Assembly (NCBI RefSeq): GCF_003334315.1
Contig: NZ_QOWR01000021.1
Strand: one strand, 5' to 3'
Source: Escherichia coli
Lineage (GTDB): Bacteria > Pseudomonadota > Gammaproteobacteria > Enterobacterales > Enterobacteriaceae
Length of the DNA stretch: 64,000 nt
A program made the translations under genes and the position numbers. Shown here one piece after another: positions 37,737 through 38,150 of this stretch; position 1 is the stretch's first letter; each line of letters opens with the position of its first letter. The notes under the pieces were generated by a model. It made no database searches and was not told the DNA's origin. It saw nothing but the letters and a program-made list of their open reading frames with translations.

Positions 37737-37920
37737 AACAAAGCCGGGAATTACCCGGCTTTGTTATGGAATAAGGCGGTGCCTAACTCGACGTTTCGCC
37801 CGATGGTTGATATAGCTACGCTGATATCAGAAGTTGGACGGCAGGCACCTTGTTGTGCGTCATTCGTATTTTATGTAGCACGTCCCGAAGGGGCTGACAT
37901 AAGTCGGTGAATGAGCCACT
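37737..37920 (-). ncRNA. glmY: Small RNA GlmY
   Basis: Minus strand reads AGTGGCTCATTCACCGACTTATGTCAGCCCCTTCGGGACG... ending in hairpin aagccgggtaattcccggctt, matching the GlmY sequence as I recall it; immediately upstream of glrK. Confidence 0.9.
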
Positions 37921-37931
37921 GGTTACTATTA

Positions 37932-37947
37932 TGCAGTAACTGTGCCA
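37932..37947 (-). promoter_or_regulatory. Sigma-54 (-24/-12) promoter of glmY
   Basis: Minus strand TGGCAC-N5-CTGCA positioned so that the -12 element lies about 12 nt upstream of the GlmY 5' end. Confidence 0.8.
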
Positions 37948-38036
37948 ATAAAGAAAATAGTTTGGTAACGTACTGATTATACGTTGCTTTGAGGGGTTTA
38001 TGTCTCCTCCGCTGTTTGAATGTAAATCAGCCACTA

Positions 38037-38054
38037 TGTCGCTAAAAAGAGACA
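38037..38054. promoter_or_regulatory. GlrR binding site 1 (TGTC-N10-GACA)
   Basis: tgtcgctaaaaagagaca upstream of the glmY sigma-54 promoter. Confidence 0.7.
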
Positions 38055-38099
38055 ACTTAAGATAAACTTATTAGATGACATTAAAATCAATGAGTTAAA

Positions 38100-38117
38100 C
38101 GTCACCAAAAAGCGACA
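38100..38117. promoter_or_regulatory. GlrR binding site 2 (CGTC-N10-GACA)
   Basis: cgtcaccaaaaagcgaca. Confidence 0.6.
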
Positions 38118-38132
38118 CAGCAAACCATCCAT

Positions 38133-38150
38133 TGTCGTGATTTACAGACA
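38133..38150. promoter_or_regulatory. GlrR binding site 3 (TGTC-N10-GACA)
   Basis: tgtcgtgatttacagaca. Confidence 0.7.

What the first reader, a model, noticed from the sequence alone, without database searches (positions are those of the whole stretch)
37737..38150. glmY sRNA with its sigma-54 promoter and three GlrR sites
The minus strand contains the complete GlmY sequence. It is preceded by a TGGCAC-N5-CTGCA sigma-54 promoter and, further upstream, three TGTC-N10-GACA dyads at about 116, 179 and 212 bp from the 5' end. The cognate two-component system glrK-qseG-glrR lies immediately downstream on the same strand. I read the whole regulatory module directly from the sequence.
Basis: partly seen in the sequence, partly recalled or inferred. 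Interest (0 to 1): 0.45.

Follow-up and report, generated by a model that had tools for sequence, protein, structure and literature searches.

The report
Known glmY sRNA and its promoter
This is the well-studied E. coli glmY small-RNA gene with its sigma-54/sigma-70 promoter, GlrR and IHF binding sites and the adjacent glrK-qseG-glrR genes; it is ordinary, except that the middle GlrR site differs by one base from the laboratory-strain sequence.

Summary
Minus strand 37920->37737 is GlmY. It is 184/184 identical to E. coli K-12 b4441, and Rfam RF00128 scores 146 bits against a threshold of 33.

The sigma-54 element TGGCACAGTTACTGCA lies at 37947-37932. The known sigma-70 -10 hexamer CATAAT overlaps it.

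Upstream are three 18-bp dyads at -230/-213, -197/-180 and -134/-117. Two perfect IHF-consensus matches flank the proximal dyad.

glrK, qseG and glrR follow on the same strand. Their proteins are identical to those of K-12.

One correction is needed. Only two dyads are exact TGTC-N10-GACA. The middle one (ABS2, 38117-38100) reads TGTC-N10-GACG. K-12 has a perfect site there.

This allele occurs in about 3% (170/5426) of complete E. coli genomes. It sits in a 93-bp patch with 9 SNPs relative to K-12.

Across 86 enterobacterial species the three dyads recur with fixed spacing (32-33 and 63-64 bp). G at position 18 is the commonest natural deviation, so the variant is probably tolerated.

Nothing here is new. 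The module was described by Reichenbach et al. 2009 and Göpel et al. 2011. Interest is low.

The parts
37737..37920 (-). glmY primary transcript, 184 nt (+1 = 37920)
   Evidence: 184/184 identical to the K-12 ncRNA b4441. The predicted fold has three stem-loops, -64.2 kcal/mol, z = -4.8.
37773..37920 (-). 148-nt part of GlmY that corresponds to the processed, active form
   Evidence: Rfam RF00128 matches full length at 146 bits. The 184 -> 148 nt processing is from PMC4152352.
37737..37765 (-). GlmY intrinsic terminator hairpin (AAAGCCGGGTAATTCCCGGCTTTGTT)
   Evidence: A 12-bp stem at GlmY positions 156-184 in the minimum-free-energy fold.
37932..37947 (-). sigma-54 promoter TGGCACAGTTACTGCA (GG at -26/-25, GC at -14/-13)
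   Evidence: Invariant in 11 E. coli alleles. Conserved across genera.
37928..37933 (-). -10 hexamer CATAAT of the overlapping weak sigma-70 promoter
   Evidence: The sequence matches the -10 named in PMC3045617. Candidate -35 hexamers are poor (TTTCTT and similar), and the consensus scan finds no strong sigma-70 site.
37966..37978 (-). IHF-like site 2 (proximal), AATCAGTACGTTA, -58..-46
   Evidence: Perfect WATCARNNNNTTR match. Invariant in 11 alleles.
38037..38054 (.). GlrR site ABS3, TGTCTCTTTTTAGCGACA, -134..-117
   Evidence: Exact dyad, identical to K-12. The position is conserved across genera.
38085..38097 (+). IHF-like site 1 (distal), AATCAATGAGTTA on the + strand, -177..-165
   Evidence: Perfect WATCARNNNNTTR match. 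It lies between ABS2 and ABS3, as described in PMC3045617. The consensus positions are kept in all 11 alleles.
38100..38117 (.). GlrR site ABS2, TGTCGCTTTTTGGTGACG, -197..-180; one mismatch (position 18, A>G)
   Evidence: K-12 has TGTCGCTTTCTGGCGACA at this place.
38133..38150 (.). GlrR site ABS1, TGTCTGTAAATCACGACA, -230..-213
   Evidence: Exact dyad, identical to K-12.
38156..38177 (-). purL intrinsic terminator, directly abutting ABS1
   Evidence: Terminator scan.
36251..37678 (-). glrK (qseE) sensor kinase, 475 aa, TTG start
   Evidence: 475/475 aa identical to K-12 b2556. RefSeq annotates it as QseE/GlrK.
35373..36086 (-). qseG lipoprotein, 237 aa
   Evidence: NCBIfam NF007997, 360 bits against a cut-off of 234. 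Identical to K-12.
34049..35383 (-). glrR (qseF) sigma-54-dependent response regulator, 444 aa
   Evidence: NCBIfam NF011695, 983 bits against a cut-off of 763. Protein identical to K-12 despite 20 synonymous differences.

Best explanation
This is the Escherichia coli purL-glmY-glrK intergenic module.

GlmY is made as a 184-nt RNA. It starts at one nucleotide (37920) from two overlapping promoters: a weak constitutive sigma-70 promoter (-10 CATAAT) and a sigma-54 promoter (TGGCAC-N5-CTGCA).

The sigma-54 promoter is silent until phosphorylated GlrR (QseF) binds the three upstream dyads ABS1-3. GlrR is the enhancer-binding response regulator encoded downstream. It is phosphorylated by GlrK (QseE), with help from the lipoprotein QseG. 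IHF binds next to ABS3 and bends the DNA so that GlrR can contact the polymerase.

GlmY is trimmed to 148 nt. That form acts as a decoy for the RNase-E adaptor protein RapZ. This spares the homologous sRNA GlmZ, which in turn activates glmS translation when glucosamine-6-phosphate is scarce.

Shown here: sequence identity to the characterised locus, the positions of all motifs, their conservation, and the integrity of the three regulator genes. Taken from the literature on the identical K-12 sequence: GlrR and IHF binding, sigma-54 dependence, processing and the RapZ decoy action. Inferred: the one-base-deviant ABS2 of this strain still works.
For: - The Rfam GlmY match scores 146 bits.
- The RNA is 184/184 identical to b4441, and there is no difference from K-12 between 36702 and 38035.
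- The only two exact TGTC-N10-GACA dyads in 64 kb lie here.
- Two of the nine perfect IHF-consensus matches in the window flank ABS3.
- GlrR and QseG pass their NCBIfam equivalog cut-offs. All three regulator proteins are identical to K-12.
- Within E. coli, 2 of 24 half-site positions vary, against 18 of 60 positions between the sites.
- In 86 other enterobacterial species, 77 have three dyads and 9 have two. Spacings are 32-33 and 63-64 bp. There are 2.9 dyads per 260 nt against 0.06 in shuffles.
- Two stems of the RNA show compensatory changes.
- The mechanism comes from PMC3045617, PMC4152352 and PMC6075780.
Against: - ABS2 was reported as essential for sigma-54 activity in K-12 (PMC3045617, citing Reichenbach 2009). 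In this strain it carries GACG instead of GACA, plus two spacer changes, and nothing here measures binding.
- The sigma-54 motif by itself is not statistically enriched in the window.
- The distance from the GC element to the annotated +1 is 13-14 nt, slightly longer than the nominal -12.
Confidence: 0.96

Rival explanations
1. The module is the same, but in this lineage the A>G change in ABS2, with the neighbouring substitutions, weakens GlrR binding. glmY would then be driven mainly by the weak sigma-70 promoter. This would be a step in the loss of sigma-54/GlrR control that Göpel et al. describe between genera.
For: - ABS2 was reported essential in K-12 (PMC3045617).
- Position 18 belongs to both published consensus forms, TGTCN10GACA and TGTN12ACA (PMC3045617, PMC6075780).
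- The window is the only one of 11 sampled E. coli alleles with this change.
- The allele is a minority one, 170/5426.
Against: - G at position 18 is the commonest natural deviation in other species: ABS1 4/77, ABS2 5/77, ABS3 10/77. That suggests it is tolerated.
- The sigma-54 element, both IHF-like sites, ABS1 and ABS3 are intact, and glrK, qseG and glrR are intact and under purifying selection, with 20 synonymous and 0 non-synonymous changes in glrR.
Confidence: 0.12
2. The stretch encodes a small protein (mechanical ORFs 37816..38055 minus strand, 79 aa; 37680..37910 plus strand, 76 aa) rather than, or besides, an RNA.
For: These ORFs appear in the mechanical ORF list.
Against: - The minus-strand ORF would start upstream of the promoter and run across it.
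- Homologous regions in other genera differ in length by non-multiples of three: 144, 148, 149, 150, 153-156 and 161-171 nt.
- Conservation follows the RNA stems.
- The full-length covariance-model match explains the conservation.
Confidence: 0.01
3. The dyads serve another regulator. For example QseB is reported to bind the EHEC glmY promoter, and the polymorphic patch tunes that input rather than GlrR.
For: - PMC3903284 reports QseB binding to the EHEC glmY regulatory region.
- PMC6075780 attributes the lack of a QseB effect in K-12 to sequence differences in the predicted QseB sites.
- The patch between ABS2 and ABS3 is the most variable part of the enhancer.
Against: - The conserved TGTC/GACA half-sites and their fixed spacing across genera travel with glrK/glrR synteny.
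- The QseB site coordinates are in a supplementary figure that I could not read, so overlap with the patch is untested.
Confidence: 0.05

Closest known systems
E. coli K-12 glmY (b4441) with perfectly overlapping sigma-54/sigma-70 promoters, three GlrR sites and IHF sites (Reichenbach et al. 2009, cited in PMC3045617; Göpel et al. 2011, PMC3045617)
   Same: The RNA, both promoters, ABS1, ABS3, the proximal IHF-like site, the terminators, the gene order and all three regulator proteins are identical.
   Different: There are nine substitutions within 38036..38128. They include ABS2 position 18 (GACA>GACG), two ABS2 spacer bases, two bases just 3' of ABS2 next to IHF-like site 1, and one base (38036) not seen in the closest genomes.
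GlmZ (SraJ), the homologous sRNA of Rfam clan CL00011
   Same: The two RNAs share ancestry and the central stem-loop that RapZ recognises (PMC4152352).
   Different: GlmZ carries the glmS-pairing sequence, and in Escherichia it is transcribed from a sigma-70 promoter only (PMC3045617). Rfam's clan competition kept GlmY, not GlmZ, for this locus. glmZ is not in this window.
rpoE P2, the second reported GlrR/QseF-activated sigma-54 promoter (Klein et al. 2016, cited in PMC6075780)
   Same: It uses the same activator. TGT-N12-ACA dyads are present upstream of rpoE in this same window.
   Different: It drives a protein-coding target. The dyad spacing is different (190 and 74 bp). I could not place a canonical GG-N10-GC element there, and the paper is not held.
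glmY promoters of other Enterobacterales (Yersinia, Serratia, Pectobacterium, Klebsiella, Citrobacter and others)
   Same: They show the same TGGCAY-N5-NTGCA element and three dyads with 32-33 and 63-64 bp spacing, between purL and glrK.
   Different: The distance from ABS3 to the promoter ranges from 93 to 145 bp. GlmY is 144-171 nt long up to the processing point. According to PMC3045617, many genera lack the overlapping sigma-70 -10 hexamer.

Membership tests
GlmY sRNA (Rfam RF00128) | Full-length match to the covariance model above the gathering score, and better than the sister family GlmZ | tested here: met
   146 bits against 33, model positions 1-163 of 163. Only the best match of the clan is kept.
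GlmY sRNA (Rfam RF00128) | Sequence identity with the experimentally defined 184-nt E. coli GlmY | tested here: met
   184/184 identical to NC_000913.3 b4441.
GlmY sRNA (Rfam RF00128) | Conserved synteny purL - glmY - glrK | tested here: met
   Searches show it for the window. Of the loci from other species that were tabulated, every one is flanked by purL, glrK or both.
GlmY sRNA (Rfam RF00128) | Two 5' stem-loops plus a terminator, supported by covariation | tested here: met
   The fold has z = -4.8. Of 27 consensus pairs, 2 are compensatory and the rest are invariant.
GlmY sRNA (Rfam RF00128) | 3' processing to 148 nt and sequestration of RapZ | not testable with these tools
   Literature only (PMC4152352). 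The sequence is identical to the RNA that was tested.
sigma-54 (RpoN) promoter | GG and GC doublets separated by 10 nt, TGGCAC-N5-TTGCA-like, at a fitting distance from +1 | tested here: met
   TGGCACAGTTACTGCA at -27..-12, one mismatch to the consensus.
sigma-54 (RpoN) promoter | The motif occurs more often than chance would give | tested here: not met
   2 matches in the window against 2.3 expected. The support is conservation and position, not enrichment.
sigma-54 (RpoN) promoter | Transcription depends on RpoN and on an enhancer-binding protein | not testable with these tools
   Shown for the identical K-12 promoter according to PMC3045617.
GlrR/QseF upstream activating sequences | Three TGTC-N10-GACA dyads more than 100 bp upstream | tested here: inconclusive
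   ABS1 and ABS3 are exact. ABS2 has one mismatch (GACG). The same deviation occurs naturally in 5/77 species at ABS2.
GlrR/QseF upstream activating sequences | Fixed phasing of the three sites | tested here: met
   Start-to-start spacings are 33 and 63 bp in the window. They are 32-33 and 63-64 bp in 77 species.
GlrR/QseF upstream activating sequences | IHF sites flanking ABS3 | tested here: met
   Two perfect WATCARNNNNTTR matches, at -177..-165 and -58..-46.
GlrR/QseF upstream activating sequences | Physical binding of phosphorylated GlrR | not testable with these tools
   Literature for K-12 (PMC3045617). Untested for this ABS2 allele.
GlrK/QseG/GlrR (QseE/G/F) signalling system | Response regulator matches the GlrR equivalog model | tested here: met
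   NF011695, 982.7 bits against a cut-off of 763. 444/444 aa identical to K-12.
GlrK/QseG/GlrR (QseE/G/F) signalling system | QseG lipoprotein gene lies between the kinase and regulator genes | tested here: met
   NF007997, 360.3 bits against a cut-off of 234.
GlrK/QseG/GlrR (QseE/G/F) signalling system | Kinase is GlrK/QseE | tested here: met
   No NCBIfam model passes its own cut-off. The protein is 475/475 identical to K-12 b2556, and RefSeq names it QseE/GlrK.

The most novel reading that the evidence does not exclude
The minority E. coli allele carried by this window is found in about 3% of complete genomes. It has ABS2 GACA>GACG plus eight nearby substitutions. It could measurably lower GlrR-dependent activation of glmY. 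That would make it a within-species intermediate in the shift from sigma-54/GlrR control to constitutive sigma-70 control that has been described between genera.
Probability: 0.12. Interest if true: 0.25.

Novelty: already known. Interest (0 to 1): 0.08.

Why it matters
It matters little as a discovery. [quoted passage not shown]

The only new detail is a natural one-base variant of the GlrR site reported as essential. It lies in a polymorphic enhancer patch and could be used to ask how much sequence slack that site tolerates.

Tried and rejected
- **Sigma-54 motif enrichment.** I tested whether the motif alone is enriched in the window. It is not, so I relied on position and conservation.
- **Sigma-70 scan.** The generic scan finds no site. 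This fits the published description of a weak promoter with a poor -35 (PMC6075780).
- **SNP patch as a hotspot.** I asked whether the 9-SNP patch over ABS2 is exceptional. It is not. Equally dense SNP clusters occur in glrR and purL in the same window-versus-K-12 comparison, at 110 SNPs in 11 kb. This is ordinary recombination mosaicism.
- **Co-variation with GlrR.** I looked for a GlrR DNA-binding-domain change that travels with the ABS2 change. There is none; the protein is identical to K-12.
- **RNAalifold covariation.** It yields only two compensatory pairs because most stems are invariant. It is weak as independent proof, but it is not needed given the Rfam score.
- **Papers not held.** The supplementary alignments of PMC3045617 and the rpoE paper PMC5087721 are not held. 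The exact published IHF, QseB and rpoE P2 coordinates therefore could not be compared.
- **Frequency of GACG.** I could not count GACG independently of the rest of the 93-nt allele across all 5426 genomes. The figure of 170 is for the whole allele. The other 10 alleles I sampled all have GACA.
- **Small-ORF reading.** Rejected.

Full report
**What is there**

Read on the minus strand, the interval holds, from 5' to 3':

- the purL stop codon (38236) and the purL terminator hairpin at 38177..38156;
- three 18-bp dyads;
- an AT-rich stretch;
- TGGCACAGTTACTGCATAAT;
- the sequence AGTGGCTCATTCACC..., running to a GC-rich hairpin with a T-tract that ends at 37737.

Rfam's GlmY model (RF00128) matches 37920..37773 over its full length. 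It scores 146 bits against a gathering score of 33, and it is the only Rfam match in the 16-kb neighbourhood (whole window).

I fetched the K-12 MG1655 reference region and aligned it. The 184-nt annotated ncRNA glmY (b4441) corresponds exactly to window 37920..37737, with no difference. The finding's start coordinate is the 3' end of the RNA. Its end coordinate is the distal edge of the first dyad.

**Promoters**

The sigma-54 element TGGCAC-AGTTA-CTGCA occupies -27..-12 relative to the annotated 5' end. As a bare motif it is not evidence: with one mismatch allowed, the window holds 2 matches against 2.3 expected. The evidence is of three other kinds.

- It sits at the right place.
- It is invariant in 11 sampled E. 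coli alleles.
- An equivalent GG-N10-GC element lies at the corresponding distance in 92 of the 93 glmY loci from other enterobacterial species that have enough upstream sequence.

Its published -10 hexamer CATAAT (PMC3045617) is at 37933..37928 and shares the bases C and A with the -12 element. Candidate -35 hexamers are poor, and the generic scan finds nothing. This agrees with the description of a weak basal promoter (PMC6075780).

**Activator sites**

Exact TGTC-N10-GACA occurs twice in the whole 64-kb window, and both copies are here: 38150..38133 and 38054..38037. The chance expectation is 0.44.

Its 3' half reads GACG, which is one mismatch. K-12 has the perfect TGTCGCTTTCTGGCGACA at that place.

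The positions are -230/-213, -197/-180 and -134/-117. This fits 'more than 100 bp upstream' and the -238..+22 reporter fragments used in PMC3045617.

Two perfect matches to the IHF consensus WATCARNNNNTTR lie at -177..-165 (opposite strand) and -58..-46. They are two of only nine such matches in the window. They flank ABS3, as PMC3045617 describes.

**The regulator genes**

Downstream on the same strand are glrK (TTG start at 37678, 58 nt after the RNA's end), qseG and glrR, followed by glnB.

- GlrR passes its NCBIfam equivalog cut-off: 983 bits against 763.
- QseG passes its cut-off: 360 bits against 234.
- The kinase has no model that passes its own cut-off. However, all three proteins are identical in amino-acid sequence to those of K-12.
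- glrR carries 20 nucleotide differences, and all of them are synonymous.

**How this strain differs from K-12**

Over 11 kb the window differs from K-12 at 110 positions, which fall in clusters. There are no differences between 36702 and 38035. Nine differences fall within 38036..38128. That patch covers ABS2 and the sequence between ABS2 and ABS3; the IHF-like site 1 itself (38085..38097) is unchanged. Comparable clusters occur in purL and glrR, so the patch is ordinary recombination mosaic and not a special hotspot.

The 93-nt allele is identical over 92 of its 93 bases in 170 of 5426 complete E. coli genomes. The other genomes range down to 84.6% identity.

The remaining base, T at 38036, lies just 3' of ABS3. 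It is the only difference from the closest genomes in 701 nt. Over 20 kb the window is about 100% identical to strains such as 1223, EC590 and C288.

Among 11 sampled alleles:

- the half-sites vary at only two of 24 positions (the window's ABS2 position 18, and ABS3 position 2 in strain OkiPb01695);
- 4 of 30 spacer positions vary;
- 18 of 60 positions between the sites vary.

**Comparison across genera**

A conserved GlmY core pattern retrieved 95 loci from the species-representative genome collection. Every locus tabulated is flanked by purL, glrK or both. For the 86 loci with a recognised promoter and 260 nt of upstream sequence:

- 77 have three dyads with at most one mismatch, and 9 have two;
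- start-to-start spacing is 32 or 33 bp for ABS1-ABS2;
- start-to-start spacing is 63 bp (three times 64) for ABS2-ABS3;
- the ABS3-to-promoter distance varies by lineage, from 93 to 145 bp;
- the dyad density is 2.9 per 260 nt, against 0.06 in shuffled sequence.

This is independent support that the dyads are functional.

It also puts the window's variant in context. G at position 18 is the commonest deviation at every site: 4/77 at ABS1, 5/77 at ABS2 and 10/77 at ABS3. Examples at ABS2 include Citrobacter sedlakii, C. amalonaticus and Kluyvera georgiana. I therefore judge the variant to be probably tolerated.

**The RNA**

The 184-nt sequence folds into two 5' stem-loop domains and a terminator (-64.2 kcal/mol, z = -4.8).

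In an alignment of 48 sequences, 27 consensus pairs are predicted. Most never vary. Two show clean compensatory exchange: UA/AU at 25:23 and CG/AU at 24:21.

Lengths differ between genera by non-multiples of three. This excludes the mechanical ORFs as conserved coding sequence.

**Mechanism and status**

The mechanism is taken from the literature on the identical K-12 sequence.

- GlrK, aided by QseG, phosphorylates GlrR (PMC6075780).
- GlrR binds ABS1-3 and, with IHF, activates the sigma-54 promoter. ABS2, ABS3 and the distal IHF site were reported as essential and ABS1 as dispensable (PMC3045617).
- The sigma-70 promoter gives basal transcription from the same start site (PMC3045617).
- GlmY (184 nt) is processed to 148 nt and sequesters RapZ. 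This protects GlmZ, which activates glmS (PMC4152352).

None of these steps can be measured with these tools. What is shown here is sequence identity, the positions of the motifs, their conservation and the integrity of the genes.

**Verdict**

The finding is correct and already known.

- Corrections: one of the three dyads is imperfect in this strain, and the module also contains an overlapping sigma-70 promoter and two IHF-like sites.
- Residual question: whether the ABS2 variant changes GlrR responsiveness. I put that at about 12%.

Noticed in passing
window 38036: T on the minus strand, immediately 3' of ABS3 (GACA|T). All 10 other sampled alleles, and the closest complete genome, have C here. 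It is the single difference from the best-matching genomes over 701 nt.
   Followed up: yes
window 38178..38235 (between the purL stop and the purL terminator); alignment A2 columns 268-294: There is a REP-like indel polymorphism. The GC-rich palindromic stretch CCGGATGAGGCATTCACGCCGCATCCGG is complete in 6 of 11 E. coli alleles. An 18-nt piece of it is missing in the window, K-12 and two others, and another allele carries a different deletion.
   Followed up: partly
window 56902..57183 (nadB 5' end and the nadB-rpoE intergenic region): Three exact TGT-N12-ACA dyads lie upstream of rpoE, at 57183-57166, 56993-56976 and 56919-56902. They are 3 of only 17 in the whole window. This fits the report that GlrR/QseF also activates a sigma-54 rpoE P2 promoter (PMC6075780). 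I could not place a canonical GG-N10-GC element there, and the primary paper is not held.
   Followed up: partly
window 55111..55126 (-): The second one-mismatch hit to the sigma-54 consensus, TTGCACAATTGTTGCA, lies inside rseB and lacks the GG doublet. It is probably a chance match.
   Followed up: partly
window 92-265, 397-700, 8075-8184, 9030-9101, 47100-47176, 50589-50803, 53586-54417, 60884-60926: Other Rfam matches above the gathering score are IS128, ryfA, the iscRS element, naRNA4, OhsC, rncO, AsrC (antisense of rseC) and ES036. All are as expected for this part of the E. coli chromosome. No tRNA genes were found.
   Followed up: no
L055 (CACSKA010000009.1, labelled Chryseobacterium sp. 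18061): A contig labelled as a Bacteroidota genome carries a typical enterobacterial purL-glmY-glrK locus. Its promoter element is identical to that of Enterobacter sp. CC120223-11 (L046). The assembly is probably contaminated or mislabelled.
   Followed up: no
L054 (Candidatus Symbiopectobacterium sp. 'North America'): This is the only locus with enough upstream sequence that lacks GG-N10-GC at the expected place (TAGCAT...GTGGA). The conserved GlmY 5' motif GCTCATTCA also reads GCTAATTCA. This may be decay of glmY control in an insect symbiont.
   Followed up: no
RefSeq records under hits H1-H10, L002-L010 and L106: glmY is annotated as an ncRNA in K-12 MG1655 only. In the other RefSeq (PGAP) E. 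coli genomes I looked at, the purL-qseE interval carries no feature at all.
   Followed up: no
H51 (NZ_CM149861.1), matching window 30000-50000: In this otherwise ~100% identical genome the 20-kb stretch spans 21.2 kb in two pieces. That implies an insertion of about 1.2 kb somewhere in the interval, possibly an IS element.
   Followed up: no
window 38236..42123 (purL): There are 77 nucleotide and 8 amino-acid differences from K-12, clustered in patches. glrK, qseG, glrR and glnB have no amino-acid differences.
   Followed up: partly
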